From: an uncultured Clostridia bacterium
GTDB taxonomy: Bacteria; Acidobacteriota; Aminicenantia; UBA2199
Length of the DNA stretch: 64,000 nucleotides
Direction of reading: 5' to 3'
NCBI GenBank assembly: GCA_964562095.1
Contig: CAZLSH010000002.1
Location: 9,597 to 73,596 of the forward strand
Each line of letters opens with the position of its first letter. Position 1 is the first letter of the stretch. A program made the translations under genes and the position numbers. The notes below the pieces were generated by a model that did no database searches, was not told the DNA's origin, and saw only the letters and a list, made by a program, of their open reading frames with translations. Below are positions 6,641 through 42,050 of the stretch, piece after piece.

Positions 6641-6659
6641 GGCGATGGCTGAGTCGGAA

Positions 6660-6687: not shown

Positions 6688-6691
6688 GCGA

Positions 6692-6720: not shown

Positions 6721-6768
6721 TAAGCGCAATGCGCAGTTTTCACGATCTGTTCACGGGGGAGGGCGTCC

Positions 6769-8016
6769 ATGGCTGAAAAGGCCATGCGCGGCGACCGGCT
6801 GCACATCGCCATCTTCGGCCGGCGCAACGCCGGCAAGTCGTCGCTGATCAACGCTCTGACCGGCCAGCCGGTGGCCATCGTCTCCGACGTGCCCGGGACG
6901 ACCACCGACCCGGTTTTCAAGGCCATCGAGTTCCAGCCCATCGGCCCGGCGGTGCTGATCGACACGGCGGGGATCGACGACCGCGCCGAGGGGCTGGGAG
7001 CGGAGCGGGTCAAGAAGGCGGCCGCCGTCCTGGAAAAGAGCGACCTGGCCCTGCTGGTGGTCGACGCCGCCGCCGATGATTTCGCTCACGAGGACGAGCT
7101 GCTGGAGAAGTTCCGCCGGCGCTCCATCCCGGTCATCGTCGTGGCCAACAAGACCGACCTGGCGCCGGGGCGGGGGAGCGACTGGTTCCGCGACAAGACC
7201 TGCGTGCGCGTCAGCGCCCTGTCCGGAGCCGGCCTGGATGAGCTGCGGCGGCTCATCCTGGAGATCGCCCCCAGCCAATGGGAGCCGCCCTTCCTGCGCG
7301 ACCTGGTCCGCGCCGGGGACGTGGTGGTGCTGGTGGTGCCCATCGACAGCGGCGCCCCCAAGGGGCGGCTGATCATGCCCCAGGTCAAGGCCCTGCGCGA
7401 CGCCCTGGACGGCGGCGCCATGCCGCTGAGCTGCCGCGAGAGCGAGCTGGCCGCGGCCCTCGCCGCCCTGCGCGCCCGCCCGGCGCTGGTGGTGACCGAC
7501 TCGCAGGCTTTCGCGCCGGTCGCCGCCGTCGTCCCCGCCGAGGTTCCGCTGACCTCCTTCTCCATCCTCTCGGCGCGGCAGAAAGGCGACCTGCCCAGCC
7601 TGGTGGAGGGCGTCCTCGCCGTGCCGCGGCTTCGGGCCGGGGACCGGGTGCTGATCGCCGAGTCGTGCTCCCACCACCCGCTGCCGGACGACATCGGCCG
7701 GGTGAAGCTGCCGCGCTGGCTGAACGAGTACGCCGGCGGCGGCCTCAGGATCGAAACCGTCCCCGGCAGCGCCTACCCAGACGACCTGTCGGCCTACCGG
7801 CTGGTGGTGCACTGCGGCGCCTGCACCCTCAACCGCCGCGAGATGCTGCGCCGCCAGGAGCTGCCCGCCCGGGCCGGGGTGGCGATGACCAACTACGGGG
7901 TGTTGATATCGTTCTTGAAGGGCGTCTTCCCGCGGGCGCTGCGGCCCTTCTCCGAGCTGTACGCCCGCTACCAGCATACCGCCTGGCCGCGCGGCCGGGG
8001 GCAAGGAGCGGACTGA
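6769..8016 (+). CDS. hydF: [FeFe]-hydrogenase maturation GTPase HydF
   Basis: N-terminal GTPase P-loop (IAIFGRRNAGKSSLINALTG, DTAG, NKTD) and a C-terminal FeS-scaffold CxH...HCxxC motif (ESCSHH...VVHCGAC). A GGGGGAGGG RBS precedes it. Confidence 0.9.
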   Translation: MAEKAMRGDRLHIAIFGRRNAGKSSLINALTGQPVAIVSDVPGTTTDPVFKAIEFQPIGPAVLIDTAGIDDRAEGLGAERVKKAAAVLEKSDLALLVVDAAADDFAHEDELLEKFRRRSIPVIVVANKTDLAPGRGSDWFRDKTCVRVSALSGAGLDELRRLILEIAPSQWEPPFLRDLVRAGDVVVLVVPIDSGAPKGRLIMPQVKALRDALDGGAMPLSCRESELAAALAALRARPALVVTDSQAFAPVAAVVPAEVPLTSFSILSARQKGDLPSLVEGVLAVPRLRAGDRVLIAESCSHHPLPDDIGRVKLPRWLNEYAGGGLRIETVPGSAYPDDLSAYRLVVHCGACTLNRREMLRRQELPARAGVAMTNYGVLISFLKGVFPRALRPFSELYARYQHTAWPRGRGQGAD

Positions 8017-8017
8017 A

Positions 8018-9400
8018 ATGGATAGCGGATTCATCGACCACGCCAGAATATTCTCCTGCCTGGATAGCGCCCGGCCGCCCGACCGCCGGGAAACAGCCGA
8101 CATCCTGGCCAGGGCGCGGCAGCTCAAGGGGCTCGACTTTGCCGAAGCGGCGCGGCTGCTGCTGCTCGAGGACGAGGAGAGCCTGGCCGAGATCTTCGCC
8201 GCCGCCCTGTTCGCCAAGAGCGAGATCTACGGCAAGCGCCTGGTCCTCTTCGCGCCGCTGTACGTGTCGAACCTGTGCAACAACGAGTGCCTCTACTGCG
8301 CCTTCCGCAAGAGCAACGACCGGATCACGCGCCGCACCCTCCGCCAGGAGGAGATCCGCCGCGAGACCGAGCGGCTGGTCGACCAGGGGCACAAGCGCGT
8401 GCTGCTGGTGTCGGGCGAGGGGCTGGGCGAGGCCGCCCTGGGCTATTCGCTGCAGGCCATCGAGACGATCTACTCGGTCAAGCGCGGCGACGGCGAGATC
8501 CGCCGTGTGAACATCAACGTCGCCGCCCTGCCGGTCGACGCCTACCGCCAGCTGAAGGCGGCCCGCGTCGGCACCTACCAGCTGTTCCAGGAGACCTACC
8601 ATTATGACACCTTTCGCCGCATGCACCCCAGCGGGCCCAAGGCCGACTATCTCTACCACCTGACGGCCATGGACCGCGCCATGCAGGGCGGCATTGACGA
8701 CGTCGGCGTCGGCGTCCTGTTCGGCCTCTACGACTACCGCTTCGAGGTCCTGGCCCTGCTGCAGCACATCCGCCACCTGGAGCAGGCCTTCGGCGTCGGC
8801 TGCCACACCATCTCGCTGCCGCGCATCGAGCCGGCCACCGGCTCCGACCTGTCGCTGCACCCGCCGCACGCCGTGTCCGACGCCGACTTCCGCAAGATCA
8901 TCGCCGTGCTGCGCCTGAGCGTGCCCTACACGGGCATGATCCTCTCCACCCGCGAGAACGCCGCCATGCGCCGCGAGGCCTTCTCGCTGGGCGTCTCGCA
9001 GATCAGCGCCGGCTCGCGCACCAACCCCGGCGGCTACTCCCACGGCGACAGCGGCGAACAGTTCTCCCTGGGCGACCACCGCGACCTGGAGGAGGTCGTC
9101 CGGGACATCGTCGGCCACGGCTACATCCCCTCGTTCTGCACCGGCTGCTACCGCCTGGGCCGCACCGGCGCCGACTTCATGGACCTGGCCAAGCCGGGGC
9201 TGATCAAGCTCTATTGCCTGCCCAACGCCATGACGACGTTCAAGGAGTACCTGGTCCATTACGCGTCCCCGGAGACGCGTGCGTCCGGCGAGGAGCTCAT
9301 CGAGAGCATGATGGCCGACATCCCGGATGCGGAGGTCCGCGGGACGACCCGCAATAACCTGGGGCGGATCGAGGCCGGCGCCAAGGACCTCTACCTGTAG
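8018..9400 (+). CDS. hydG: [FeFe]-hydrogenase maturase HydG (radical-SAM tyrosine lyase)
   Basis: Radical-SAM CNNECLYC motif, ThiH-like length of 460 aa, and a C-terminal CX2CX22C auxiliary-cluster motif (CTGC...22 residues...C). An AAGGAG RBS precedes it. Confidence 0.85.
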   Translation: MDSGFIDHARIFSCLDSARPPDRRETADILARARQLKGLDFAEAARLLLLEDEESLAEIFAAALFAKSEIYGKRLVLFAPLYVSNLCNNECLYCAFRKSNDRITRRTLRQEEIRRETERLVDQGHKRVLLVSGEGLGEAALGYSLQAIETIYSVKRGDGEIRRVNINVAALPVDAYRQLKAARVGTYQLFQETYHYDTFRRMHPSGPKADYLYHLTAMDRAMQGGIDDVGVGVLFGLYDYRFEVLALLQHIRHLEQAFGVGCHTISLPRIEPATGSDLSLHPPHAVSDADFRKIIAVLRLSVPYTGMILSTRENAAMRREAFSLGVSQISAGSRTNPGGYSHGDSGEQFSLGDHRDLEEVVRDIVGHGYIPSFCTGCYRLGRTGADFMDLAKPGLIKLYCLPNAMTTFKEYLVHYASPETRASGEELIESMMADIPDAEVRGTTRNNLGRIEAGAKDLYL

Positions 9401-10453
9401 ATGGACCTCCAGGAGCGCCTGCAGCGGCTGTATCGCGAGCCGAACCGCGGCGACCTGATCCATTTTCTTGCCACTCCCGATATGAACGAGGTCGGGTGTT
9501 TGTACGACTTCGCCGACCGCGTGCGTCGCGAGCATGTCGGCGACGCCGTTCACCTGCGGGCCATCGTCGAGTTCTCCAGCTTTTGCCGCAACGACTGCCT
9601 CTACTGCGGCCTGCGCCGCTCCAACCACGCCCGCCGCCGGCTGCGCATGCCTCTGGATGAGATCGTCGCCCAGTGCCGACGGGCGGAGACGCTCGGCTTT
9701 CGCACGGCAGTACTGCAGTCGGGCGAGGACCCGTTCTACGGCCGCGAGGCGATCGCCGGCCTGGTGCGCCGGGTGAAGGCGGAGACCGGCCTGGCCGTCA
9801 CCCTGGCGGTGGGGGAGAGGAGCGAGGAGGAGTACCGGGCCTTCTTCACGGCCGGAGCCGACCGCTACCTGCTCAAGCACGAGACGTCGGACCGCGAGCT
9901 CTACGAGAGGCTCGACCCGGGTCTGAGCCACGAGCGGCGCATCGGCTGCCTGCGGCTGCTGAAGCGCATCGGCTTCCAGACCGGCAGCGGCATCATGGTC
10001 GGCCTGCCGGGACAGAGCCTGGAAAGCATCGCCGACGATATCCTGCTGTTCCGCGACCTGGACCTCGACATGATCGGCTGCGGCCCGTTCATTCCGCACC
10101 CGGCGACGCCACTGGCAGCGGAGCCGCCGGGAAGCGAGGAACTGACCTACCGCGTGCTCGCCCTGGCGCGACTTGTCACCCGCGACACCCACATCCCGGC
10201 CACCACCGCCCTGGCGGTCACGGCCGGCGACGCCGGGCGCGCCAGCGCCCTGTGCCGCGGCGCCAACGTGGTCATGCCCAACATTACCCCCCAGCCCTGG
10301 CGCGGCGCCTACGAAATCTATCCCAGCAAGGGGCGGACGGAGGTCTTTGACCCGTCCCTGCTGGAGCGGCTGCGGCGGACGCTCTGCGAGCTGGGACGTT
10401 TCATTGCCGAGGACGCCGGCGAACGGGTAGGATTCCCCCATTCGATTTCTTGA
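9401..10453 (+). CDS. hydE: [FeFe]-hydrogenase maturase HydE (radical-SAM, biotin-synthase-like)
   Basis: Radical-SAM CRNDCLYC motif, a 350-aa BioB-like fold, and its start overlaps the hydG stop (TAGATG). Confidence 0.85.
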   Translation: MDLQERLQRLYREPNRGDLIHFLATPDMNEVGCLYDFADRVRREHVGDAVHLRAIVEFSSFCRNDCLYCGLRRSNHARRRLRMPLDEIVAQCRRAETLGFRTAVLQSGEDPFYGREAIAGLVRRVKAETGLAVTLAVGERSEEEYRAFFTAGADRYLLKHETSDRELYERLDPGLSHERRIGCLRLLKRIGFQTGSGIMVGLPGQSLESIADDILLFRDLDLDMIGCGPFIPHPATPLAAEPPGSEELTYRVLALARLVTRDTHIPATTALAVTAGDAGRASALCRGANVVMPNITPQPWRGAYEIYPSKGRTEVFDPSLLERLRRTLCELGRFIAEDAGERVGFPHSIS

Positions 10454-12177: not shown

Positions 12178-12945
12178 TCAGAAAGTCCTGACGCGTCCCA
12201 GCAGACGCAGCAGTCCGTCCAGGATCGTGTAGGGGTGGGGAGGACAGCCGGGGATATAGAGATCGACGGGAAGCATCTCGTCCACGCCGTGGTGGACGTC
12301 CGCGTGCCCGGCGAACATGCCAGCAGAAATGGCGCAAGCCCCGACGGCAATGACGATCTTCGGTGCCGGCGTGGCGTCATAGGTCTTGCGCAGCGCCAGC
12401 TCCATGTTGGCCGTCACCGGCCCGGTCACCAGCAAGCCGTCGGCGTGGCGCGGAGAGGCGACGAACTGAATGCCAAAGCGGGCCAGATCGAACACGATGG
12501 TATTGAGCACATTGATGTCGGCTTCGCAGGCGTTGCAGCCGCCGGCGCTGACCTGGCGCAGGCGCAGTGAGCGGCGGAACAGCCGCAGACGTTTGGGCTC
12601 CAGTGGCCGGGCATGAAGAAAGCAGGCATCTCCGCTGACGGCCAGGCCGCGTCTTTCGTTGGCGGCGAGGATGTATCCGGCGGTGAATGTGATCACCTGA
12701 TCGGGGCAATGGCGCGCGCAAGCGCCGCAAAAGATGCAGCGGCCCATATCGATGACCGCCGTGCCCTGCGCCTTATGGATTGCCTGTACCGGGCAAACCC
12801 GGATGCAGGCGCTGCAGCCGCTGGCGCATTTCCCGGCGGCGATCTTCGGTAAGCCCAGGAAGCGGTCCGGCAGGATAGCTGCCTGCTTCGGGTATTGCAC
12901 CGTGCGTTGACGCTGGGCGATCCTTGTTTTCAGAACATTCGCCAT
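12178..12945 (-). CDS. Fused 2x[4Fe-4S] ferredoxin (NuoI/HycF-like) and NuoB/HycG-like small subunit of an energy-converting hydrogenase-related complex
   Basis: The N-terminus has two Cys clusters (CASGCSACIRVCP, CIFCGACARHCP). The C-terminus has the NuoB/small-subunit cluster ligands GGCNACE, GACA, GCPP. Confidence 0.8.
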   Translation of the reverse strand: MANVLKTRIAQRQRTVQYPKQAAILPDRFLGLPKIAAGKCASGCSACIRVCPVQAIHKAQGTAVIDMGRCIFCGACARHCPDQVITFTAGYILAANERRGLAVSGDACFLHARPLEPKRLRLFRRSLRLRQVSAGGCNACEADINVLNTIVFDLARFGIQFVASPRHADGLLVTGPVTANMELALRKTYDATPAPKIVIAVGACAISAGMFAGHADVHHGVDEMLPVDLYIPGCPPHPYTILDGLLRLLGRVRTF

Positions 12946-12961: not shown

Positions 12962-14485
12962 TCATAGATCAAATCCACAGTATGACAAGTTGAAGCTCTT
13001 GTTGCAGAGCGGGAAATCGGAGATCGGTTGGCCGCGCATGGCCAGCGCCAGGCCGAACCAGTTGTGGAACGACGGGTCGACGATCTTGTAGCGCTGGAAA
13101 CGGCCGTTCTTGTCGGTGATGGCCACGTGGCAAATTTCTCCCCGCCAGCCTTCGACGAGCGCCACTGTGAGCGCCGAGGCTCTTGCCGGCAGGGGGCCGG
13201 CGGCGATCTCCTTGCCTTTCTGCGCCCTGAACGGCGTGTCCGTTCTGCCCAGATGTTCCAGCAGGAACGCGCAGGATGCCTGGACCTCGCGCCAGCGCAC
13301 ATGCGCTCGGCTGAACACATCGCCTGAATCATGGCTGCAGACCGGAATATGGGCGAAGCGGTAGTACCCATGGGCATGGTCCTGGCGCACGTCTTGAAAG
13401 CAATCGCAGGCGCGCAGCGCCGGGCCGACCAGACCGATGCTCTCCGCCGTTTCCCGCGCCAGCCGGCCTGTGCCCTCGAAACGGGCGAGGATGGAGGCGT
13501 CCTCCCAAAGAAGGCCGGTCGCGCCCAAGAAATCAGAGGTTGAGCCTTGAAGCTTTTTGGACAGCTCCGCTTTTCTTTTCTCATCCAGGGCGAATCCGCA
13601 ACCGCCGGGGACCACCAGGCCGCGGCCGAAGCGGTTGCCGCAGAGCACGGCGGTCATGTTCAGGAAATCACCGCGGATTCTGCCGCAATACGACATGGTG
13701 GGCAGAAAGCCAATGTCCCCGGCCAGCGCGCCCAGATCGCCGACATGGTTGGCGCACCGTTCCAGCTCCAATGCCAATGCCCGCACCATGCCGTCATGGG
13801 CAGAGATCTTGCAGCCGGCCAGTGATTCAACGACCTGGCAATAAGCGCTCATGTGGCCCACCGAGGTGTCGCCGGCGATCACGGCCATCTGAAAGGGCGA
13901 GACGGGGAAGGGCCCGCCACGCAGCGCGTTCTCGATACCGCGGTGCTGGTAGCCCAGTGATATCTCCAGGTGGAGGACCGTCTCCCCGTGGCATTGGAAG
14001 CGGAAGTGCCCCGGCTCGATGATCCCCGCGTGCACGGGGCCGACCGCCACTTCGTGGATCCCTTCGCCACGGACCCGGAAGTAGTCGATCCGGCCGATGG
14101 AGGAAGCCGGCCCTTGCTCCTTTGCCGCCGGCTGGGGAAAACGGACCGCCTTGAGCCAGGGATGGCCCTGGGGCCGCAGCCCGGTCTGCTCGCAGATCTC
14201 CCTTTCGAAGAGATGGACTTGGGGAAAACGGGGGGTCAGGGAGGGGAAATCCTTTTTCCTGGTTATGGTGGAGATGACGGAGAGGGAGCCATTGCGGTCG
14301 TCTGCGGCCACGGCGTACAGTTGGACCTTTTGGGCGTCGAGGCGGTCGCCGAAATAGGCGCAGACCCGGAATCCCCGGTCCAGCAGTACGGCCAGAGACT
14401 CGACGAAGTCGTCCAAGTCAAGGACGGGAACATCGGCCAATGGGATGACCTGGCCGTTGCCTATGCGAGGGATGGCGGCGCTCAT
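12962..14485 (-). CDS. NuoC-NuoD fused large subunit, group 4 hydrogenase / Ehr-like, lacking the NiFe-ligating cysteine motifs
   Basis: Only the 3-prime 1.5 kb of the listed 892-aa ORF looks protein-like; the real start is MSAAIPRIG at 14485. It has the NuoD/HycE signature GPVHAGIIEPGHFRF...HRGIE. Where HycE has RVCGICGFAH this protein reads VIAGDTSVGHMS, and its C-terminus is DFPLCNKSFNLSYCGFDL instead of DPCxxCxxR. It overlaps the next gene by 4 nt. Confidence 0.8.
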   Translation of the reverse strand: MSAAIPRIGNGQVIPLADVPVLDLDDFVESLAVLLDRGFRVCAYFGDRLDAQKVQLYAVAADDRNGSLSVISTITRKKDFPSLTPRFPQVHLFEREICEQTGLRPQGHPWLKAVRFPQPAAKEQGPASSIGRIDYFRVRGEGIHEVAVGPVHAGIIEPGHFRFQCHGETVLHLEISLGYQHRGIENALRGGPFPVSPFQMAVIAGDTSVGHMSAYCQVVESLAGCKISAHDGMVRALALELERCANHVGDLGALAGDIGFLPTMSYCGRIRGDFLNMTAVLCGNRFGRGLVVPGGCGFALDEKRKAELSKKLQGSTSDFLGATGLLWEDASILARFEGTGRLARETAESIGLVGPALRACDCFQDVRQDHAHGYYRFAHIPVCSHDSGDVFSRAHVRWREVQASCAFLLEHLGRTDTPFRAQKGKEIAAGPLPARASALTVALVEGWRGEICHVAITDKNGRFQRYKIVDPSFHNWFGLALAMRGQPISDFPLCNKSFNLSYCGFDL

Positions 14486-15969
14486 CGGCCGATCCCCCTT
14501 TCCACCGCGGCTGCCGCGTCCCGCAAAAAGGCGGAGAAAGGCTCGGGAAGCCATATTCCCAGCAGCAGCAGCGCTGCCGCCAGGCCCAGGACGATCAGGA
14601 TATCGGGCAACCGGGGCTTTGCGGCCGCAGGCAGCGCGCCGCTGCCGCCGCCGAAGGAAACAGCCATGGCGTTTTTCAGGGCGCCGAAAAAAACGGCCAG
14701 GACGCAGAAAAGGAATAGCCCGACGATAAAGTATCGCCCCTGGAAAAAGGCCTGCTTGACGATCAGGAATTCGCTGAGGAAGATCGAGAAGGGCGCCACG
14801 CCGATCAACGCCAGGATGGATAGGAAGAAAGCCCCGCCCCAGAGAGGCACGCGCTCGCCGGCGGCGCTGATCCGCCGCATGTCTCTGGTCCCGTAATGGA
14901 CGCTGATATGGCCGGCGGCAAAGAAGGAGAGGACCTTGGCGAACGAATGGTTGGCGGTGTGCAGCAGGGCCGCGAACGTGCCGATGCCGCCGAGTCCCAG
15001 TCCCACCGCGATGATGCCCATGTGCTCCACGCTGCAGTAGGCCAGGAAGCGCTTGATGTCGCTCTGGATGGGAATGAAGATCGCCGCGAAAAGCAGCGAG
15101 GTGAACCCGAAGATCAGGATGATGGCCTGGGCCTGCCCGTCCCCGCCCATCGCTGCCTTGGCGATCGGCAGGTAGCGCATGATGCAAAAGAGGGCGCAGT
15201 TGAGCATCACCCCGGAAAACGCCGCCGAAACCGGCGTCGGGGCCTGGCTGTGGGCGTCGGGGAGCCAGGTGTGCATGGGCGCCAGCCCGGCCTTGGTCCC
15301 GAAGCCGACCACGATGAAAACGAAGGCGAAGAGCATGAGTTGCGGGTCGATCTGGTCCGCATGCCGCGCCAGCCGGCTGAAAAGGAACTGCGAGCCCGCC
15401 CCGGGCAGGTTCTTGGCCGCGGCGACCGTCAGGATCGTGCCCATGAAGGCGAAGACGATCCCCACCGAGCAAATGAGCAGGTACTTCCACATGGCTTCGA
15501 TGGAAAGGGGGTCGGTTTCGGAAATGATCAGGAACGCCGAGACCAGGGTCGTCGCTTCCAGGGCCACCCACATGACCCCGATGTGGTTGGACATCAGGAC
15601 CAGGAGCAGCATGGCCTGGAACGCCTGCCAGAGCATGCAATAGCGCTTGACGGCGGTGCGGCCCAGGTTGCCGGCCTGGATCCCGTGCTTGAAGTAACCG
15701 CCGGCATAGATGGCGGTGATCAGGAAGACCAGGTCGACGAGAACGATATGGTACAGGGAGAGGGAATCGATGAGCAGGATGCGGCCGTAATGGGAATAGG
15801 CCCCGCCGGCGAAAAAACGCAAGGCCAGCGGCAGCGTCAGGACGGCTGTGGCCAGGGAGGTGACGACCGGGATGCGCAGGGTGCGTCCGGCGTCGGTCAT
15901 GGGCAGGCAGGCCAGGATGCCGCCGCCGAGAACGGCGAAAATGACGGGAATGAAAATCGCCGTCGCCAT
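14482..15969 (-). CDS. NuoM/NuoN/HyfF/MnhD-like proton-translocating antiporter subunit
   Basis: GLAPMHTWLPDAH and AYCSVEHMG motifs in a ~14-TM, 495-aa protein. Confidence 0.8.
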   Translation of the reverse strand: MATAIFIPVIFAVLGGGILACLPMTDAGRTLRIPVVTSLATAVLTLPLALRFFAGGAYSHYGRILLIDSLSLYHIVLVDLVFLITAIYAGGYFKHGIQAGNLGRTAVKRYCMLWQAFQAMLLLVLMSNHIGVMWVALEATTLVSAFLIISETDPLSIEAMWKYLLICSVGIVFAFMGTILTVAAAKNLPGAGSQFLFSRLARHADQIDPQLMLFAFVFIVVGFGTKAGLAPMHTWLPDAHSQAPTPVSAAFSGVMLNCALFCIMRYLPIAKAAMGGDGQAQAIILIFGFTSLLFAAIFIPIQSDIKRFLAYCSVEHMGIIAVGLGLGGIGTFAALLHTANHSFAKVLSFFAAGHISVHYGTRDMRRISAAGERVPLWGGAFFLSILALIGVAPFSIFLSEFLIVKQAFFQGRYFIVGLFLFCVLAVFFGALKNAMAVSFGGGSGALPAAAKPRLPDILIVLGLAAALLLLGIWLPEPFSAFLRDAAAAVERGIGR

Positions 15970-16616
15970 CAGCGCCTCAACTTTTCCAGCGAGCCGCTGC
16001 TGATGGTGTCGTACTCGCTATGGATGTGATGGACGACCATAACCATGATGAACACGCCGACGAGCATGTCCAGCAGAATGCCCATTTCCACGAAAAGGGG
16101 CTGGAAGGCGGCGATGGAGAGGCCCAGGATGAAGCCTGAGTTTTCGAAAACCAGGTAACCGATGATTTGACTGACCACGTTGCGCCGCGCCACGATGAGA
16201 AAAAGTCCGATAAACGCCGTGGCGATGGCGGTGGAGGCGTGAAACGGCGATATCGTGACCGAGTAGAACGGAATTTTTCTGAGCACATAGAAGGCGAAGG
16301 CCGAGGTCAGGATGCCGAAGGTGACCGACAGCGAATAGCCGATGGCGGGGTCGACCTCGCGCACGACGCGCACGTCCCGGATCGCCCGGCGTAGATAGCG
16401 GGGGATCAGAATGCCCTTGATGGCCATGCTTAAGAAGACGAGGAGGAACATGTGGATCCTCTCCGCCGGATTCGGCAGGAGCAGGGGCAGAACGCTTAAA
16501 AGCAGCCCCTGGGCAGCGACGCCGCGGATCATGCCCGAAAGCCGGCTCGTAGCCAGCATATACAGGTTGCAAACGACGATGGCGAGTGAAACCCAGGCCA
16601 GCGGATTGAATCTCAT
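15969..16616 (-). CDS. HyfE-like small membrane subunit (hydrogenase-4 component E family)
   Basis: A 215-aa polytopic membrane protein with a HyfE-like profile, positioned between the NuoH-like and NuoM/N-like genes. Confidence 0.65.
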   Translation of the reverse strand: MRFNPLAWVSLAIVVCNLYMLATSRLSGMIRGVAAQGLLLSVLPLLLPNPAERIHMFLLVFLSMAIKGILIPRYLRRAIRDVRVVREVDPAIGYSLSVTFGILTSAFAFYVLRKIPFYSVTISPFHASTAIATAFIGLFLIVARRNVVSQIIGYLVFENSGFILGLSIAAFQPLFVEMGILLDMLVGVFIMVMVVHHIHSEYDTISSGSLEKLRR

Positions 16617-16623: not shown

Positions 16624-17541
16624 TTACCATGCGAGTGCCCCGGTCACGCTGATAAAAAAACCCAGCAAGGCGATCACGCCCGCGGCGAATAGAAGTTGCG
16701 GCACCTTGAGCAGCGGCACCCGGGCCATGGACGACTCCACAACGCCCACGATGGCGGCGATCAGGGCGATCAGCGCCACGAGCACGATCGTCTGCAGCAG
16801 TGGCGACGAGCTCGAAACAGGGAGCAAAATCCTCGCCAAAACCAGCGAAAACAACCAGAGCTTGATCGCCGCCGCATATTCCAGCAGCGCCAGCCCCGGG
16901 CCGCTGTTATCCAGGATCATCGCTTCGTGGATCATGGTGAGTTCCAGGTGGGTGTTCGGGTCATCGAATGGGATACGGGCATTCTCGGCCATGAGAACGA
17001 TGAACAGCGGCAGCGCCGAGAGCAGCACGGTGATGGAATCGGCGACCATGGGGGCGGAGAGAGCCGTCATGATGCTGCCGGTGCCATTCGCACGCATGAC
17101 GTTGAGCAGGCAGACGAACAGGACGGGCTCGGCGAGCGCCGAAAAAAAAGCCTCGCGGCTCGCCCCCATGCCGGCGAATGACGAACCGGTGTCGAGGGCG
17201 GACAGGATCAGGAAGAATCTTGCCAGGCCCAGGAGATACAGCAACATGACCACATCGCCGGTGAACAGCGGCTTCGGGCTCAGCATCAGGAAGGGCACAA
17301 AACAGGTTGCGGCGAGGGTAGCGGTGAAGATCACGACCGGGGCCATGCGGAACAGCCACGAGGTCGTCATGCTGGTTACGGTGCCTTTGTGCAGGAGGCG
17401 AAAAAGATCATAGTAGGCTTGGAGGAGCGGTTGCCCTTTGCGCCCGGCGAACATGGCCTTGACGCGGTTGATGATCCCGGCCAGCAGCGGCGAGAAGGCC
17501 AGTGCTGCGGCCGGGGAGATGAGAAAGGCGCTGATGTTCAT
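16624..17541 (-). CDS. NuoH/HycD/HyfC-like membrane subunit
   Basis: The N-terminal motif RVKAMFAGRKGQPLLQ matches the HycD/NuoH family; the protein is 305 aa with 8 TM. Confidence 0.8.
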   Translation of the reverse strand: MNISAFLISPAAALAFSPLLAGIINRVKAMFAGRKGQPLLQAYYDLFRLLHKGTVTSMTTSWLFRMAPVVIFTATLAATCFVPFLMLSPKPLFTGDVVMLLYLLGLARFFLILSALDTGSSFAGMGASREAFFSALAEPVLFVCLLNVMRANGTGSIMTALSAPMVADSITVLLSALPLFIVLMAENARIPFDDPNTHLELTMIHEAMILDNSGPGLALLEYAAAIKLWLFSLVLARILLPVSSSSPLLQTIVLVALIALIAAIVGVVESSMARVPLLKVPQLLFAAGVIALLGFFISVTGALAW

Positions 17542-19523
17542 AGGAAGAACTTCCAGATGATCAGACAGAAAACGGTCAGTGCGATGTAGAACACATATTG
17601 CCCGGTTTTGCCACTCTGGAACCAGCGCAGCAATGAGAACGCCCTGTCCAGGGATCTGACCAGTGGAGAGAACAGCCGGGTCAGGAACCAGTCATCCACG
17701 CCCGCATGAAACGACCAGTTGTCCATGGGGAATAATTCCCTGTCGTTCCGGAGCTGCTCGTGCCCATGCAGGGGAAGCTGGAAATGCTTGATGAGCGGAG
17801 CGGCGAAAGAAGAGGCCGTGTATTGCATGGTCGGGCCGGGTTGGCTGTAGCCGCAATCCCACGTGACGGCGCCCGTCACGGCCCGCCCCCTGCGCTTCAT
17901 GATCGAGCGCCAGGCGTAGAAAAAAACGGCGGCCAATGCCAGCAGGCCCAGGATGATGCTCACGGTCAAAGTCAATGGGAAGAGCGTCCGGGCCGCCGCA
18001 TCGGCAGGGCCGAAAAACATCAGGACCGGTCGAATTAAAACCGGGAGCATGGCCATACTGAATAGGCCTATGAGCAGGCATAGCGCGGCCAGCAAGCCCA
18101 TGGACCAGAGCATGGGAGCCGGAGCTTCTGTTGGCGTGAGCTCTGTTTTCGTGCGTGCTTCACCAAGGAAAACGATACCGAAAACTTTCGTGAAACAGGC
18201 CACGGCCAGACCGCCGATGAGCGCCAGCGAGATGATGACGGCAAGGCTCAGCAGCGCCAGCAGCGGCTGCGGAGCGTGCACGGCGCCGCTGATGCCCGCG
18301 ACGTAGATGAACAACTCGCTGATAAAGCCATTGAAGAACGGCAGGCCGCAGATGGCGATGGCGCCGACAAAGAACAAACTGCCTGTGCGGGGCATTTTTT
18401 TCAACAGGCCGCCCAGGCGATCGATCTCGCCGCTCCCCGTTTGCCGGATCACCGCCCCGGCCCCAAGGAACAGCAGTCCCTTGAATAGGGCATGATTTAC
18501 GACATGCAGCAGCCCGCCTGCGAAACCGAAAAGCGCGATGGTGCTGGAGCCGAAGGCCACCCCGGTCATGCCGATGCCGATGCCCAGGAGAATGATGCCG
18601 ATATTTTCAACGCTGTGATAGGCAAGCAATCTCTTGATATCATGCTGCCCGAGGGCGAAGAGCACTCCCAGTATGCCGGATATCGCTCCCAGGGCAATCA
18701 GGAGCATGCCCCACCAGGAGTGAAATGGCGCAATGAACGTCAACAACCGCATCAGCCCATATATGCCCATCTTGATCATGATCCCGGACATGAGCGCCGA
18801 TACATGGCTCGGGGCGGCCGGGTGCGCGAGGGGAAGCCAGACATGAAAGGGAATGAACCCCGCTTTCAAGCCGAATGCGATCAGGGCGAGGATGAATACG
18901 GCATCGGCCCTGGCGGCCGAGAAATGAATGCCGGTCCAGGCGTGAAAATCGAACGAGCCGGCTGACGCGGAAAGCTGGAGAAAAAGGACCAGCAGAAATG
19001 CCGTGCCTACGTGCGCCGTGACGAAATAGGTCCATCCGGCCCGGATCGCATCGGGGTTCTTTTTGTCGTTGATGACCAGGAAAAACGATGAGAGCGACAT
19101 GATCTCCCAGGCCAGGATGAACAGGACAGCGTTCCTGGCCAGGAGCACCATGACCATCCCGGAAACCAGCAAGCTGAAATAGAACCAATGGGAGCGTCCG
19201 GCGGGATGACTCCCGAAGTAACGCGTCCCGTAAAGTGAACTGGCTGCCGCCAGGATCAGCAGCGGGATCATGAATATGGCGCTCAAGGGGTCGATGCCCG
19301 CCCGCAGGCTGGCGAAGGGCAGTTGCCAGTTCAGCCAGCTGGAAATGATATTCGCGTCAATGCGGCGGAAAATCCAGAAAAGATATGCCAGGGTGATGAG
19401 GCTGCCGGCGGAAACAATGATGGCGGTCAGGTCCTTTAGCCGGGAGCCATGCTTGAACGGGTACAGGCTGAATACGCCAGCTGCACTGACAACGAAGACA
19501 TAAAAAATCAAGGGGTTCAGCAT
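17538..19523 (-). CDS. NuoL/HyfB/HycC/MnhA-like antiporter subunit
   Basis: LAWEIMSLSS, FHVWLPLAHPAAPSHVSALMSG and LAYHSVENIG motifs; 661 aa. Confidence 0.85.
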   Translation of the reverse strand: MLNPLIFYVFVVSAAGVFSLYPFKHGSRLKDLTAIIVSAGSLITLAYLFWIFRRIDANIISSWLNWQLPFASLRAGIDPLSAIFMIPLLILAAASSLYGTRYFGSHPAGRSHWFYFSLLVSGMVMVLLARNAVLFILAWEIMSLSSFFLVINDKKNPDAIRAGWTYFVTAHVGTAFLLVLFLQLSASAGSFDFHAWTGIHFSAARADAVFILALIAFGLKAGFIPFHVWLPLAHPAAPSHVSALMSGIMIKMGIYGLMRLLTFIAPFHSWWGMLLIALGAISGILGVLFALGQHDIKRLLAYHSVENIGIILLGIGIGMTGVAFGSSTIALFGFAGGLLHVVNHALFKGLLFLGAGAVIRQTGSGEIDRLGGLLKKMPRTGSLFFVGAIAICGLPFFNGFISELFIYVAGISGAVHAPQPLLALLSLAVIISLALIGGLAVACFTKVFGIVFLGEARTKTELTPTEAPAPMLWSMGLLAALCLLIGLFSMAMLPVLIRPVLMFFGPADAAARTLFPLTLTVSIILGLLALAAVFFYAWRSIMKRRGRAVTGAVTWDCGYSQPGPTMQYTASSFAAPLIKHFQLPLHGHEQLRNDRELFPMDNWSFHAGVDDWFLTRLFSPLVRSLDRAFSLLRWFQSGKTGQYVFYIALTVFCLIIWKFFL

Positions 19524-19530: not shown

Positions 19531-20286
19531 TCATGGTTTGACGGACTCTTTGCGCAAAGTACTCTCGAAGGCGGCCAGGGTATCGAGGATCAGCTGGCGG
19601 TTGGATGTCCCCTTGAGCACGCAGCGGATGGCGGGCTGGTGCAGGGCATAGCTGAGCCTGGACAGAATGTGAAGGTGGGAACGGACCGTGTGGGTGATGA
19701 TGGTGAAGACGGTATCAACCGCCTTGCTGTCCAGGGCGTTGAAGTCGATGGGCTGTTCAAGAAAACACAGCGCCAGGACCGGTTTTTTCACATGAAATAT
19801 GATCGGGTTTCTGACGTGGGGGATGGCGATGCCGTCGCCGATGGCGGTGGTGCCGAGGTTCTCCCGCGCCAGTAGAGCTCCGATCAGGAATTCCCTGTCC
19901 ACATCGTCGGGGAGGTGCATGATGTTGACGATCGACCGGAGCACGCTCTCCTTGTCCGTGCCGGGGATGCGATAATGGATGCCTCCGGCGTTGAGCGACT
20001 CGGTCAGCGCCGGCATTTCATCGTCGGTCTCGAAAGGTTCATCGAATATCGCGGGGGAGAGCTTTATTTTTCTGGCCGTGGCCCATTCCAGCAATTCCAC
20101 CCTGTTGAAGCGATAACCTTCACCGATCTTGTAGGCTGGGATCTCTTTTTTCGCTATCCAGCGGTAGATTGTTTTATCCGAAACCGCCAACATCTGGGCA
20201 ACTTCCTTTAATCCAATCATCATGGAAAAATTCAACTCCTTGCTTGAGAGTGCGGTTGGTATACTATAGAAAAATGTATAATCCAT
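19531..20286 (-). CDS. Regulator: excisionase/MerR-type HTH fused to a PTS EIIA(Fru/Ntr)-type domain
   Basis: N-terminal HTH_17-like helix (LKEVAQMLAVSDKTIYRWIAKKEIPAYKIGEGYRFNRVELLEWA). The C-terminal PTS_EIIA_2 domain carries the phosphorylatable His motif GIAIPH. It lies 8 nt upstream of the NuoL-like gene on the same strand. The start could instead be the MM pair at 20218-20223. Confidence 0.7.
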   Translation of the reverse strand: MDYTFFYSIPTALSSKELNFSMMIGLKEVAQMLAVSDKTIYRWIAKKEIPAYKIGEGYRFNRVELLEWATARKIKLSPAIFDEPFETDDEMPALTESLNAGGIHYRIPGTDKESVLRSIVNIMHLPDDVDREFLIGALLARENLGTTAIGDGIAIPHVRNPIIFHVKKPVLALCFLEQPIDFNALDSKAVDTVFTIITHTVRSHLHILSRLSYALHQPAIRCVLKGTSNRQLILDTLAAFESTLRKESVKP

Positions 20287-20634: not shown

Positions 20635-21888
20635 TCACTCGATCTGCGCGGAGACGTACTCGGTCAGCTTCCCCAGGCAGTTCACGTAACTGCCGTACTC
20701 GTTGTCGTACCAGCCCATGATCTTGGCGTGGGTGACGGGGATATTGACCTCGCGCATGCCACTGACGCCGATGGCCGCCAGCACGTCCTGGGGAACCTGC
20801 AGGAAGCCGGTCCGGGTGTGGATCTCCTGGCCCTCGATCACGACGGCGGCGGGAAAGCCCAGCAGGTCCTGGGACACGTTCTGCTTGGTGGAAAAGACGA
20901 GCAGGCCCTTCTGCGCCCCGTCCGCGGCCGAGCGGTAGATTCCCTTGATGTGCTCGGTGTTGATGAAGGGCATGCCGTTCTCGTTCAGGCGGGAGCTGAA
21001 GGTGATGTTGAGGGCGATCAGCGAGACGGACGGCGTGGGGATGCGGATGGAATCGGCCATGAAGCCGAAGCGGCTCGTCTGCGGGATCACCTTCTCCAGC
21101 GTCTTGGCGGCGCCGGTCGAGGAGAGGATGATGTTGTTCAGGACCGAGCGGTTCTTGCGCAGGTCCGAGGCGCCGGCGGCGGGAACGGAGTCCAGGACGC
21201 TCTGGGTATTGGTGGCGGCGTGGACGGTGGACATGGAGGCCGTGAGGATGTGGCTGGTTTCGCGGTCTTCCAGCAACGGCTTGATCATGTGGGCCAGGCC
21301 GGTCGTCGTGCAGCTGGCCGCGGAGACGATGTTGTGGCGCATGGGGTTGAAGCTGGCGTGGTTGATGCCGTAGATCAGGGTGGGGCAGGCCTCGGCGTCG
21401 GTCCAGGACGCTCTCTTGGACTTGAAGGGGGCGCTGACGATGACCTTCTGGGCGCCGGCCGCCAGGTGCCCGGCGACGCTGCCCCGGGCGTCACTGGCGG
21501 GGACGCCGGGATCCAGGAACTTGCCGGTGCAGTCGACGACGACACGCACCCCCTCTTCCTTCCAGCGCAGGTTCTGGGGGTTCCGCTCCCGGTTCAGGAA
21601 CTTGACCCGGAACCCGTCGATCGCCAGCCAGCCGTTGGGCCCGTCGACGACCTCGATGGCGCACGTCCGGCCCGAGTGGCCGTGCAGGAAGTGGTCCAGC
21701 GAGCCGTAGGTCGAGTCCGAGCGGATCGCCTGGATGAAATCGTCGACGCTCTTGCCCACGTCCCGGCCCACGTTGGCCACGATGCCGTCGAACTTGCGGG
21801 AGACCAGGTGATACCACAGGGTCAGCTTGCCGATGCGGCCCAAGCCGTTGACCCCCAGCAGCTTCTTGTCATGGATGCTTGCGTTCAC
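20635..21888 (-). CDS. gap: Glyceraldehyde-3-phosphate dehydrogenase family protein, long form (~417 aa) with internal insertions
   Basis: NAD-binding GVNGLGRIGK, catalytic ASCTTTGLAH and C-terminal WYDNEYGSYVN motifs. A GTG start at 21886-21888 is preceded by AAGGAGAAGG; the N-terminal 85 aa of the listed ORF look like non-coding read-through. There is an extra ~80 aa relative to canonical GAPDH. Confidence 0.7.
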   Translation of the reverse strand: MNASIHDKKLLGVNGLGRIGKLTLWYHLVSRKFDGIVANVGRDVGKSVDDFIQAIRSDSTYGSLDHFLHGHSGRTCAIEVVDGPNGWLAIDGFRVKFLNRERNPQNLRWKEEGVRVVVDCTGKFLDPGVPASDARGSVAGHLAAGAQKVIVSAPFKSKRASWTDAEACPTLIYGINHASFNPMRHNIVSAASCTTTGLAHMIKPLLEDRETSHILTASMSTVHAATNTQSVLDSVPAAGASDLRKNRSVLNNIILSSTGAAKTLEKVIPQTSRFGFMADSIRIPTPSVSLIALNITFSSRLNENGMPFINTEHIKGIYRSAADGAQKGLLVFSTKQNVSQDLLGFPAAVVIEGQEIHTRTGFLQVPQDVLAAIGVSGMREVNIPVTHAKIMGWYDNEYGSYVNCLGKLTEYVSAQIE

Positions 21889-42026: not shown

Positions 42027-42050
42027 GATGCCTCCTCTGGATGTTTCGTC

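What the first reader, a model, noticed from the sequence alone, without database searches (positions are those of the whole stretch)
12962..14485. Large subunit has lost both CxxC NiFe-ligand motifs but keeps the NuoD/HycE core
Aligned by eye to E. coli HycE, the N-terminal Ni ligands (RVCGICGFAH) correspond here to VIAGDTSVGHMS. The C-terminal DPCxxCxxR box is replaced by DFPLCNKSFNLSYCGFDL. The flanking signatures (GPVHAGIIEPGHFRF, HRGIE, LELERCANH) are conserved. This argues for a non-hydrogenase redox or proton-pumping module rather than a sequencing artefact. The two residual cysteines with 8-residue spacing at the extreme C-terminus are unusual and could bind a different metal or cofactor.
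Basis: seen in the sequence. Interest (0 to 1): 0.7.

Follow-up and report, generated by a model that had tools for sequence, protein, structure and literature searches.

The report
Hydrogenase-like Ehr complex without nickel-iron site
This gene encodes the large subunit of an "Ehr" complex, a known and widespread membrane complex related to energy-converting hydrogenases that has lost all four metal-binding cysteines; it cannot be a normal hydrogenase, and its real substrate is still unknown.

Summary
The gene lies on the minus strand (12962-14485, 507 aa). Alignment with E. coli HycE/HyfG places AGDT opposite CGIC and SYCG opposite CYSC, so all four Ni-Fe ligands are replaced (Ala, Thr, Ser, Gly).

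This is not new. [quoted passage not shown] The window carries a complete cluster: HTH-EIIA regulator, EhrA, EhrB, EhrC, EhrD, EhrL and EhrS.

The replacement motifs are almost invariant in 123 homologues and in 80 species genomes from more than 12 phyla, so the site is under selection and is not decaying. All 12 Fe-S cysteines of EhrS are kept, as are the proton-path residues of EhrL and the charged residues of the antiporter-like subunits.

Only 37 of 88 family representatives have both.

Most likely function: a ferredoxin-fed, ion-translocating oxidoreductase with an unknown non-proton acceptor.

New here: a PTS-EIIA/HTH gene heads the cluster in 44 of 82 loci.

Verdict: new member of a known kind, modest interest.

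The parts
19531..20286 (-). HTH_17 (excisionase/MerR-like) + PTS_EIIA_2 protein. It is the first gene of the cluster and a probable phosphorylation-controlled regulator. The likely true start is the ATG at 20223 (230 aa, as called in L001).
   Evidence: Pfam HTH_17 4e-16 and PTS_EIIA_2 3e-23. NCBIfam PtsN/FruA-type EIIA. It ends 7 nt before EhrA. A homologue lies next to the Ehr cluster in 44/82 loci. The phospho-acceptor motif AIPH (His157) is conserved in at least 90% of copies. The Geobacter sp. AOG1 copy overlaps EhrA by 4 nt.
17538..19523 (-). EhrA, an antiporter-like membrane subunit (HyfB/HycC/NuoL-like, 661 aa). Its C-terminal part includes an ND3-loop-like WDCGY segment.
   Evidence: Pfam Proton_antipo_M. 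HycC 7z0s_C E=3.8e-72. NCBIfam best hit is hydrogenase 4 subunit B. E140/K220/K251/E403 align with NuoM E144/K234/K265/E407.
16624..17541 (-). EhrB, the membrane anchor subunit (HycD/NuoH-like, 305 aa).
   Evidence: Pfam NADHdh. HycD 7z0s_D E=1.2e-30, with conserved glutamates in the aligned EA..EP and E..PFD segments.
15969..16616 (-). EhrC, a HyfE-like small membrane subunit (215 aa).
   Evidence: Pfam Oxidored_q2, below cut-off. NCBIfam HyfE 1e-21, below cut-off. Present in 71/82 loci.
14482..15969 (-). EhrD, the second antiporter-like subunit (HyfF/NuoN-like, 495 aa).
   Evidence: Pfam Proton_antipo_M. NCBIfam hydrogenase 4 subunit F 2e-116. E138/K226/N257/E400 is the same pattern as E. 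coli HyfF.
12962..14485 (-). EhrL, the large subunit: a NuoC-like N-terminal domain fused to a NuoD/[NiFe]-large-subunit-like domain, without any of the four Ni-Fe cysteine ligands.
   Evidence: Pfam Complex1_30kDa + Complex1_49kDa. HycE 7z0s_E by sequence, 1.5e-36, and by fold, TM 0.83. AF2 model pLDDT 83.8, pTM 0.88.
13997..14041 (-). Beta1-beta2 loop GPVHAGIIEPGHFRF (aa 149-163). It is hydrogenase-type, with Glu157 at the position of the HycE proton donor Glu193.
   Evidence: Alignment. H152 and E157 are invariant in 123/123 homologues. The role of Glu193 is taken from PMC9474812.
13853..13882 (-). L1-equivalent segment VIAGDTSVGH (aa 202-211), replacing RxCGxCxxxH. Family motif: x(A/S/C)GD(T/S)(T/S)x(G/A)H.
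   Evidence: G205 and D206 are invariant in 123/123, and D206 is present in 81/88 divergent representatives.
12965..13018 (-). L2-equivalent C-terminal segment DFPLCNKSFNLSYCGFDL (aa 490-507), replacing DPCxxCxxR. The protein ends exactly where HycE is cleaved by HycI.
   Evidence: N495, K496, S497, L500, S501, G504, D506 and L507 are invariant in 123/123 (F498, N499 and Y502 in 122/123). No C-terminal extension in 123/123.
12178..12945 (-). EhrS, the small subunit: an N-terminal NuoI/HycF-like 2x[4Fe-4S] domain fused to a NuoB/HycG-like domain carrying the proximal [4Fe-4S] cluster (CxxC...C...CP).
   Evidence: Pfam Fer4 + Oxidored_q6. MbhJ 5e-31 and HycG 7.5e-31, with the cluster cysteines aligned; NdhI/HycF match the N-terminal part. 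The 12 cysteines are each conserved in 63-68 of 69 aligned sequences (the window copy plus 68 orthologues).

Best explanation
The gene encodes EhrL, the large subunit of an Ehr (energy-converting-hydrogenase-related) complex. It belongs to a seven-gene cluster: HTH-EIIA regulator, EhrA, EhrB, EhrC, EhrD, EhrL and EhrS. Shown: the complex is built like a Hyf/Hyc-type group 4 hydrogenase, but all four Ni-Fe cysteine ligands are replaced by a different, strongly conserved polar constellation. That constellation comprises Gly205-Asp206-Thr207, His211, Asn499, Ser501, Tyr502 and Gly504. The hydrogenase-type proton-path residues are kept: Glu157, His247, Arg358, Glu400 and Arg448. The three-cluster Fe-S wire of EhrS and the charged residues of both antiporter-like subunits are intact. 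Inferred: a soluble low-potential donor delivers electrons to the NuoI-like domain of EhrS. The donor is most likely reduced ferredoxin, because the cluster encodes no HycB/HyfA-like adaptor and no NuoEFG module. Electrons pass to the proximal cluster and then to a substrate at the remodelled EhrL/EhrS/EhrB interface. That substrate is not H+/H2. Its identity is open, and menaquinone is the leading guess. The reaction drives, or in reverse is driven by, H+/Na+ translocation through EhrB/C/D/A. Expression is probably controlled by the co-transcribed HTH-EIIA protein through PTS-type histidine phosphorylation. Approximate confidences: about 0.9 that it is an Ehr-type non-hydrogenase, about 0.55 that it is a ferredoxin-linked redox-coupled ion pump, and at most 0.3 for any particular acceptor.
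For: - **Homology and fold:**
- **Ligand loss, mapped residue by residue:**
- **Conservation of the replacement motifs:** 123 homologues, 80 species genomes from more than 12 phyla, and 50%-identity cluster representatives down to 34% identity (77/88 have none of the four cysteines).
- **Retained residues:** HycE His188, Glu193, His284, Arg395, Glu437 and Arg478 map to EhrL H152, E157, H247, R358, E400 and R448, all 123/123. Their proton-path roles are taken from PMC9474812.
- **EhrS:** 12 Fe-S cysteines conserved, with hydrogenase-type CxxC spacing for the proximal cluster.
- **Antiporter residues:**. HycD-like anchor.
- **Cluster synteny:** conserved in 65-77 of 82 loci. An all-against-all clustering of 1,722 flanking ORFs found no other conserved neighbour.
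- **No other hydrogenase or complex I parts in the window:** no second large subunit, HypA/B, HycI, HycH or NuoE/F.
- **Literature:** Ehr lack the CxxC motifs, are excluded from the hydrogenases, have unknown function, and have NuoCD and NuoIB fusions. Ehr proteins are expressed in G. sulfurreducens, more so on formate.
Against: - No biochemical data exist for any Ehr complex in the literature I could search.
- The donor is inferred only from the absence of adaptor genes.
- The acceptor is unknown. The complex I quinone ligands are absent: NuoCD H224 aligns with Ile156 and Y273 with Gly205.
- Some Ehr-bearing lineages are reported to lack quinone synthesis (PMC6349859).
- The AF2 monomer model is unreliable exactly at the beta1-beta2 loop (150-160) and at the C-terminus, so the pocket could not be inspected.
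- The canopy Asp is described in PMC9474812 as apparently strictly conserved in hydrogenases and complex I. In this clade it is Asn499, which could mean the proton chemistry is altered or lost.
Confidence: 0.6

Rival explanations
1. Ehr is a ferredoxin:menaquinone oxidoreductase. The Asp206/His211/Tyr502/Asn499 constellation would form a quinone head-group site that arose independently of the complex I site. This is a specific version of the best explanation and is kept separate because it names the acceptor.
For: The proximal cluster and proton-path residues are conserved, as in complex I. Tyr502 is present in 76/88 family representatives and Asp206 in 81/88. Asn246 replaces Ser283 at the position where Y. 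lipolytica complex I has Asn185. Most hosts are phyla I know to be menaquinone-containing (Geobacterales, Planctomycetota, Verrucomicrobiota, Acidobacteriota). That last point rests on my own knowledge and was not tested.
Against: The canonical Q ligands are not conserved (H224->Ile156, Y273->Gly205). EhrB resembles HycD much more closely than NuoH (1e-30 to HycD; no NuoH chain reaches 1e-10). EhrS has the hydrogenase-type CxxC, not the complex I tandem CC. Riflemargulisbacteria carry Ehr but no quinone pathway was found in them.
Confidence: 0.25
2. The two residual C-terminal cysteines (Cys494, Cys503) ligate a replacement metal or cofactor.
For: Within the close clade they are well conserved: 117/123 and 115/123. 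Most of the 80 species genomes also have them.
Against: In divergent family members Cys494 is present in 61/88, Cys503 in 44/88, and both in 37/88. Substitutions are I/V/N/T/S and S/A. Both are lost in L049 and in the L005 paralogue. Cys503 aligns with a non-ligand Ser of HycE. Two thiolates alone do not make a redox-metal site.
Confidence: 0.06
3. It is a formate dehydrogenase-coupled complex (FDH-Ehr), that is, a formate hydrogenlyase-like assembly in which formate is the donor.
For: This has been proposed for Riflemargulisbacteria and Saganbacteria. Ehr subunits are more abundant in formate-grown G. sulfurreducens. FdhD and MobA-like genes lie at 43221-44523 in this window.
Against: The cluster has no HycB/HyfA-type adaptor ferredoxin and no fdh catalytic gene. 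The only HycB-like match lies inside EhrS. No formate dehydrogenase gene, nor any other gene besides the Ehr genes and the HTH-EIIA gene, is a conserved neighbour in 80 loci. The FdhD/MobA genes are about 23 kb beyond the cluster's upstream end.
Confidence: 0.1
4. It is a decaying or inactive relic of a hydrogenase (a pseudo-enzyme), or a cation antiporter that keeps the peripheral arm only as scaffold.
For: The catalytic metal site is gone. The canopy Asp is Asn in this clade.
Against: The substituted positions and all 12 Fe-S cysteines are under strong purifying selection across more than 12 phyla. ORFs are intact and have uniform length and C-terminus. The proteins are detected in Geobacter proteomes.
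Confidence: 0.07
5. It is still a hydrogenase, using non-cysteine ligands or a recoded selenocysteine.
For: The hydrogenase-type beta1-beta2 loop and proton path are retained.
Against: Ala, Thr, Ser and Gly cannot ligate Ni-Fe(CN)2CO. The codons at those positions are sense codons, and the TGA is the family-wide terminus. No HypA/B or HycI/HycH homologue was found in the window (HypC-F were not searched). The organism encodes an [FeFe] hydrogenase with its maturases next door.
Confidence: 0.02

Closest known systems
Ehr (energy-converting / Ech-hydrogenase-related) complex, e.g. Geobacter sulfurreducens GSU0739-0745 (EhrA-1, EhrC, EhrL, EhrS and others)
   Same: The large subunit is a NuoC-NuoD fusion lacking the CxxC motifs. 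The small subunit is a NuoI-NuoB fusion. The membrane subunits are NuoL/HyfB-, NuoH/HycD-, HyfE- and HyfF-like. The window EhrL is 56% identical to the Geobacter sp. AOG1 and Geomobilimonas proteins, which sit in the same cluster layout.
   Different: The window has one EhrA gene, whereas many Geobacterales, Planctomycetota and Acidobacteriota loci have two. The closest species-level genome (a Fibrobacteres MAG) is only 64% identical.
E. coli hydrogenase 4 / hydrogenase 3 (Hyf, Hyc; group 4a [NiFe] hydrogenases; structure 7z0s)
   Same: Best sequence and fold match for EhrL, EhrA, EhrB and EhrS. Gene order is like hyfB-C-E-F-G-(H+I). The beta1-beta2 loop, proton-path residues and proximal-cluster ligands are the same.
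   Different: There are no Ni-Fe cysteine ligands. There is no C-terminal extension and no HycI, HycH or HyfJ. There is no HycB/HyfA adaptor, no HyfD and no FhlA/HyfR. HyfH and HyfI are fused into one protein. The canopy Asp529 is Asn.
Complex I subunit NuoD/Nqo4/NDUFS2
   Same: Same superfamily and fold. Also Ni-free. The C-terminus ends at the same position.
   Different: The quinone ligands His (NuoCD H224) and Tyr (Y273) are Ile156 and Gly205. The beta1-beta2 loop is hydrogenase-type. The small subunit has CxxC rather than the tandem CC. There is no NuoEFG module.
P. furiosus MBS/Mbx (membrane-bound sulfane sulfur reductase, 6u8y)
   Same: A group 4 hydrogenase relative that no longer makes H2. 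MbsL matches EhrL at 3e-12.
   Different: From my memory of the literature, not tested here: MbsL keeps part of the cysteine ligands and has Mrp-type extra subunits. EhrL keeps none, and its membrane arm is Hyf-like.
P0233, an unnamed four-cysteine relative (530 aa) from the 50%-cluster library
   Same: It shares the Ehr-type scaffold, including HAGIIEPGH, NH, DFPLINKSF and the ...DL C-terminus without extension. It is 34% identical to EhrL and 46.6% to the divergent Ehr2 clade, against 37% to HycE.
   Different: It keeps both CxxC motifs (CGVC, CYSC), so it is presumably a true [NiFe] hydrogenase. It marks the lineage from which Ehr lost the metal site.

Membership tests
Ehr complex | The large subunit is homologous to group 4 [NiFe]-hydrogenase large subunits / NuoD. 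| tested here: met
   Pfam Complex1_49kDa 2e-28. HycE 1.5e-36 and MbhL 3e-27. Foldseek 7z0s_E TM 0.83.
Ehr complex | None of the four L1/L2 cysteine ligands of the Ni-Fe centre is present. | tested here: met
   C241->A204, C244->T207, C531->S501, C534->G504.
Ehr complex | NuoC-NuoD fusion in the large subunit and NuoI-NuoB fusion in the small subunit (as described in PMC6349859, Supplementary Note 4). | tested here: met
   Complex1_30kDa + Complex1_49kDa in EhrL; Fer4 + Oxidored_q6 in EhrS.
Ehr complex | Cluster with NuoL-like (EhrA), NuoH-like (EhrB), HyfE-like (EhrC) and a second antiporter-like (EhrD) membrane subunit. | tested here: met
   The same layout is found in 65-77 of 82 loci.
Ehr complex | Orthology to the name-giving G. 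sulfurreducens GSU0739-0745 proteins. | tested here: inconclusive
   The G. sulfurreducens sequence itself could not be fetched. There is 56% identity to Geobacter sp. AOG1 / Geomobilimonas luticola proteins in the same cluster. Several Geobacterales loci (e.g. L015, L026, L027) have seven Ehr genes, matching the seven locus tags.
Group 4 [NiFe] hydrogenase (Hyc/Hyf, Ech, Mbh) | Two CxxC motifs ligating Ni-Fe(CN)2CO. | tested here: not met
Group 4 [NiFe] hydrogenase (Hyc/Hyf, Ech, Mbh) | Proximal [4Fe-4S] cluster in the small subunit, and a beta1-beta2 loop glutamate. | tested here: met
   C137/C140/C204/C234 align with the MbhJ/HycG ligands. Glu157 corresponds to HycE Glu193.
Group 4 [NiFe] hydrogenase (Hyc/Hyf, Ech, Mbh) | Maturation apparatus: Hyp proteins, and for the Hyc/Hyf type a C-terminal extension with a HycI protease. 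| tested here: not met
   No C-terminal extension in 123/123. No HypA, HypB, HycI or HycH homologue in the 64-kb window. The rest of the genome was not available, so the absence of hyp genes is only local.
Complex I (NuoD-type quinone reductase) | Quinone-ligating His of the beta1-beta2 loop and Tyr of the L1-equivalent segment. | tested here: not met
   NuoCD H224 aligns with Ile156, and Y273 with Gly205.
Complex I (NuoD-type quinone reductase) | Tandem-cysteine ligation of cluster N2, and an NADH module (NuoEFG). | tested here: not met
   EhrS has C137-x-x-C140. There are no NuoE/F matches; the only NuoG-like match is the N-terminal domain of the [FeFe] hydrogenase.
MBS/Mbx sulfane-sulfur reductase | Partial retention of the cysteine ligands, and an Mrp-type multi-subunit membrane arm. 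| not tested
   Only a weak match to 6u8y_L (3e-12). That alignment was not inspected. The membrane arm here is Hyf-like.

The most novel reading that the evidence does not exclude
The invariant polar constellation that replaced the Ni-Fe centre (Asp206, Thr207, His211, Asn246, Asn499, Ser501, Tyr502) still sits on the retained hydrogenase proton path. It may be a genuinely new catalytic site. If so, Ehr would be a second, independent conversion of a membrane hydrogenase into a ferredoxin-driven ion-pumping reductase of quinone or another non-gaseous acceptor. It would be switched on by PTS(Ntr)-type phosphorylation of its own HTH-EIIA regulator, linking low-potential electron disposal to the PEP/carbon-nitrogen status of the cell.
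Probability: 0.2. Interest if true: 0.7.

Novelty: new member of a known kind. Interest (0 to 1): 0.3.

Why it matters
Ehr complexes are very widespread. They are one of the few branches of the complex I / hydrogenase superfamily with no known substrate.

This locus adds no new category. The comparative analysis does give concrete handles for experiments:
- It defines which residues replaced the metal site and are invariant.
- It shows the hydrogenase proton path and the Fe-S wire are retained.
- It shows the residual cysteines are dispensable.
- It shows no redox partner is encoded nearby, which points to a soluble donor such as ferredoxin.
- It shows a PTS-EIIA/HTH gene is a conserved first gene of the cluster.

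For annotation, the practical point is that such genes are labelled 'Ni,Fe-hydrogenase III large subunit' or 'NADH-quinone oxidoreductase subunit C' in public records. They should not be counted as H2 metabolism.

Tried and rejected
1. **Literature searches.** Searches on 'Ehr' were swamped by Ehrlichia and electronic-health-record papers. Only genomic or proteomic mentions of Ehr were found, with no biochemistry or structure.
2. **Search for a conserved redox partner.** I clustered 1,722 flanking ORFs from 80 loci all against all. No family beyond the Ehr genes and the HTH-EIIA gene occurs in more than 9 loci. The adjacency to the [FeFe] hydrogenase/HydEFG, MFS, GAPDH-like and PPDK-like genes is specific to this lineage.
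3. **Second, frameshifted large subunit or hyp/hycI genes.** None in the window.
4. **Selenocysteine recoding.** Rejected.
5. **Structure prediction to see what fills the pocket.** The monomer model is good overall.
6. **NCBIfam.** EhrL passes no curated model (best NuoD 144 bits against a cut-off of 360). No ready-made family name exists there.
8. **Host taxon.** Not resolved. The nearest relatives are Fibrobacteres/Chitinispirillaceae MAGs at 62-64% identity. The identical contig comes from unnamed metagenome assemblies.
Full report
**1. What is at the coordinates.** The finding's interval is one intact ORF on the minus strand (12962-14485, 507 aa). Pfam finds a NuoC-like domain (Complex1_30kDa) followed by a NuoD/[NiFe]-large-subunit domain (Complex1_49kDa, 2.4e-28). 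The best solved relative is E. coli HycE (7z0s_E, 1.5e-36). Next come P. furiosus MbhL (3e-27) and T. thermophilus Nqo4 (6e-23). An AlphaFold2 model built on 86 homologues (pLDDT 83.8, pTM 0.88) matches HycE best by fold (TM 0.83), then E. coli NuoCD.

**2. The cysteines really are gone.** The HMMER alignment to HycE puts VIAGDTSVGH opposite RVCGICGFAH, and NLSY opposite DPCY. I fetched E. coli hycE, hyfG and nuoCD and aligned them with EhrL and relatives. The residue map is HycE C241->Ala204, C244->Thr207, C531->Ser501 and C534->Gly504.
- The protein stops at Leu507, exactly where HycE is cut by HycI (Arg537). None of 123 homologues has a C-terminal extension.
- The ligand positions are ordinary sense codons. 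The TGA after Leu507 is the family-wide terminus and is not in frame with the next gene, so selenocysteine recoding is excluded.
- A six-frame search of the whole window finds no second large-subunit gene and no HypA, HypB, HycI, HycH or NuoE/F homologue.
- The identical protein is present in two independent assemblies.

**3. It is a known family.** The neighbouring minus-strand genes are as follows.

| Coordinates | Product |
|---|---|
| 17538-19523 | HyfB/HycC/NuoL-like antiporter subunit |
| 16624-17541 | HycD/NuoH-like anchor |
| 15969-16616 | HyfE-like protein |
| 14482-15969 | HyfF-like antiporter subunit |
| 12962-14485 | Large subunit (the finding) |
| 12178-12945 | Small subunit, fusing a NuoI/HycF-like 2x[4Fe-4S] domain to a NuoB/HycG-like domain |

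This is the composition of the Ehr complex first named in Geobacter sulfurreducens (GSU0739-0745: EhrA-1, EhrC, EhrL, EhrS and others).
- Published genomic work states that Ehr large subunits lack the Ni-Fe-binding cysteines, cannot be classed as hydrogenases, and have no known function (PMC6349859, PMC10284858, PMC7304191, PMC10432482).
- HydDB is trained to exclude them (PMC5037454).
- The NuoCD and NuoIB fusions are noted as Ehr features.
- The window protein is 56% identical to the proteins of Geobacter sp. AOG1 and Geomobilimonas luticola, which sit in the same cluster.

I could not fetch the G. sulfurreducens sequence itself, so direct orthology to the type example remains indirect.

**4. 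The remodelled site is under strong selection.** In 123 homologues (54-100% identity) the substituted segments are almost invariant. They read x-A-G-D-T-(T/S)-x-G-H and S-D-F-P-L-C-N-K-S-F-N-L-S-Y-C-G-(F/H)-D-L-stop. The same holds in 80 species-representative genomes. Those genomes span Fibrobacteres, Planctomycetota, Verrucomicrobiota, Spirochaetota, Geobacterales and other Desulfobacterota, Acidobacteriota, Lentisphaerae, Elusimicrobia, Omnitrophota, Chlamydiota, Gemmatimonadota and Hydrogenedentota.

A full HMMER scan of 1.84 billion 50%-cluster representatives found 737 clusters at E<=1e-30. The ligand state of the 88 full-length best representatives (34-61% identity) is shown below.

| Ligand cysteines kept | Representatives |
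|---|---|
| None of the four | 77 |
| Only the first L1 cysteine (CGD motif) | 10 |
| All four (P0233) | 1 |

P0233 has CGVC and CYSC in an otherwise Ehr-like scaffold (HAGIIEPGH, NKSF...DL end). It is closer to a divergent Ehr clade (46.6%) than to HycE (37%). That divergent clade occurs as a second cluster next to the first in L005 and L017 and carries SGD(S/T)(S/T)VAH and NKSFN(L/A)SYSGxD(R/L). Ehr therefore arose inside the Hyc/Hyf-like hydrogenases by loss of the metal site. The NKSF segment pre-dates that loss.

**5. What is kept and what is changed around the site.** I used the residue roles described for the FHL structure (PMC9474812) and mapped each onto EhrL.

| HycE residue | Role or location (PMC9474812) | EhrL residue | Conservation in EhrL family |
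|---|---|---|---|
| His188 | Beta1-beta2 loop | His152 | 123/123 |
| Glu193 | Beta1-beta2 loop proton donor | Glu157 | 123/123 |
| His284 | Proton path | His247 | 123/123 |
| Arg395 | Proton path | Arg358 | 123/123 |
| Glu437 | Proton path | Glu400 | 123/123 |
| Arg478 | Canopy arginine | Arg448 | 123/123 |
| Asp529 | Canopy aspartate | Asn499 | 122/123 in this clade; Asp in 20/88 divergent clusters |
| Ser283 | Canopy | Asn246 | Complex I (Y. lipolytica) has Asn185 here |
| Ile243 | Between the two L1 cysteines | Asp206 | 123/123; 81/88 in divergent clusters |

The paper describes the canopy aspartate as apparently strictly conserved in hydrogenases and complex I. The complex I quinone ligands are not present: NuoCD His224 aligns with Ile156 and Tyr273 with Gly205. 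The site is thus neither a hydrogenase site nor a complex I quinone site. It is a third, conserved polar arrangement on the old proton path.

**6. The residual cysteines.** Cys494 and Cys503 are well conserved in the close clade (117/123 and 115/123) but not across the family.
- Cys494 is present in 61/88 and Cys503 in 44/88 representatives, and both together in 37/88. Replacements are I/V/N/T/S and S/A.
- L049 and the L005 paralogue lack both.
- Cys503 aligns with the non-ligand Ser inside the CYSC of HycE.

A replacement metal site formed by these two cysteines is therefore unlikely to be the family's mechanism.

**7. The rest of the machine is intact.**
- EhrS has CxxxCxxCxxxCP and CxxCxxCxxxCP motifs. 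It also has the four proximal-cluster cysteines with hydrogenase-type CxxC spacing, aligned with MbhJ and HycG. All twelve are conserved, each in 63-68 of 69 aligned sequences (the window copy plus 68 orthologues).
- EhrA carries Glu140, Lys220, Lys251 and Glu403 at the positions of NuoM E144, K234, K265 and E407.
- EhrD carries Glu138, Lys226, Asn257 and Glu400, the same pattern as HyfF.
- EhrB aligns along its length with HycD, including the glutamate-bearing segments.
- EhrA also has the C-terminal WDCGY segment aligned with the HycC ND3-like loop cysteine.

**8. Partners and regulation.** No HycB/HyfA-type adaptor, formate dehydrogenase or NuoEFG gene is in the cluster. Clustering 1,722 flanking ORFs from 80 loci revealed no further conserved neighbour. 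The electron donor is therefore most simply a soluble carrier docking on the NuoI-like domain, as ferredoxin does in Ech and MBH. That last comparison rests on established knowledge of those enzymes and is an inference here.

The one conserved extra gene is an HTH_17 + PTS_EIIA_2 protein (window 19531-20286).
- It ends 7 nt upstream of EhrA.
- It lies next to the cluster in 44 of 82 loci from many phyla.
- Pfam confirms it in Geobacter sp. AOG1, where it overlaps EhrA by 4 nt.
- Its PtsN-like AIPH histidine (His157) is conserved.

I found no mention of this association in the papers I could search. It suggests control by PTS-type phosphorylation.

**9. Mechanism, with status of each step.**
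- Shown: Ehr-type architecture, loss of all Ni-Fe ligands, a conserved replacement site, a conserved Fe-S wire, proton path and antiporter residues, and no encoded partner.
- Inferred: ferredoxin as donor, a non-proton acceptor at the EhrL/EhrS/EhrB interface, redox-coupled H+/Na+ translocation, and EIIA-dependent regulation.
- Acceptor: it remains open. Menaquinone is the leading guess, but it lacks direct support and is questioned by quinone-free Ehr hosts.

**10. Verdict.** The cysteine-pair speculation is not supported. Novelty: new member of a known kind. Interest is modest (0.3). Its value lies in the still-unknown function of a very widespread complex and in the concrete residue-level and regulatory leads assembled here.

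Noticed in passing
window 19531-20286 (-); also L003-L082 and L086 4107-4796: An HTH_17 + PTS_EIIA_2 gene is a conserved first gene of Ehr clusters. It occurs in 44/82 loci from many phyla, and in L043 it sits between EhrD and EhrL. The PtsN-like phospho-histidine (AIPH, His157) is conserved. I found no description of this in the papers I could search.
   Followed up: partly
window 4832-10453 (+): An [FeFe] hydrogenase passes the NCBIfam cut-off for 'NADH-dependent [FeFe] hydrogenase, group A6' (820 bits against 765). It is followed by HydF, HydG and HydE maturases. No NuoE/F-like partner genes are adjacent; the upstream genes are two aldehyde dehydrogenases and a LysR regulator. The adjacency to Ehr is not seen in the other 80 loci.
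   Followed up: partly
window 20635-26989 (-): A 1357-aa protein has only its C-terminal ~500 aa matching the PPDK nucleotide-binding and phospho-histidine swivel domains. Its N-terminal ~860 aa have no Pfam hit, and it lacks a PEP/pyruvate-binding barrel. It is flanked by a canonical GAPDH (25982-26989) and a longer GAPDH-like gene (20635-22143). The GAPDH-like ORF overlaps the end of the 1357-aa ORF in the ORF list.
   Followed up: no
window 27385-33146 (-): Two tandem paralogous ~900-960-aa proteins carry Reg_prop beta-propeller repeats, a Y_Y_Y domain and a C-terminal LuxR/GerE HTH.
   Followed up: no
window 41559-44523 (-): Rubrerythrin, a 365-aa ORF with no Pfam hit, and FdhD and MobA-like genes (molybdopterin-enzyme maturation) are present. 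No formate dehydrogenase catalytic gene was identified among the ORFs scanned.
   Followed up: no
L005 6697-9920 and L017 13422-20518: A second, divergent Ehr-type cluster lies directly beside the first in a Verrucomicrobia and a Geobacteraceae genome. Its large subunit is 35% identical to the window EhrL. Its motifs are SGD(S/T)(S/T)VAH and NKSFN(L/A)SYSGxD(R/L)*, without Cys503.
   Followed up: partly
P0233 (50%-cluster representative, 530 aa): This was the only one of 88 full-length relatives that keeps all four cysteines (CGVC, CYSC). It has an Ehr-like scaffold and no C-terminal extension. It is closer to the divergent Ehr clade (46.6%) than to HycE (37%), so it may represent the hydrogenase lineage from which Ehr derived. 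Its genomic context could not be looked up.
   Followed up: partly
P0132, P0145, P0146, P0147, P0150, P0157, P0160, P0171, P0179, P0269: Ten family clusters keep only the first L1 cysteine (motif CGD(S/T)). This suggests stepwise loss of the ligands.
   Followed up: no
L086 11521-15915 (Geobacter sp. AOG1): EhrS is separated from EhrL by about 3.5 kb carrying four unrelated genes (DUF4145, an alpha/beta hydrolase, DUF2007, ADC). The small subunit need not be adjacent.
   Followed up: no
window 51321-54781 (+), 42051-43148 (-), 63006-63782 (-): ORFs of 670, 477, 365 and 258 aa have coding-like GC3 but no Pfam match at E<=1e-5.
   Followed up: no
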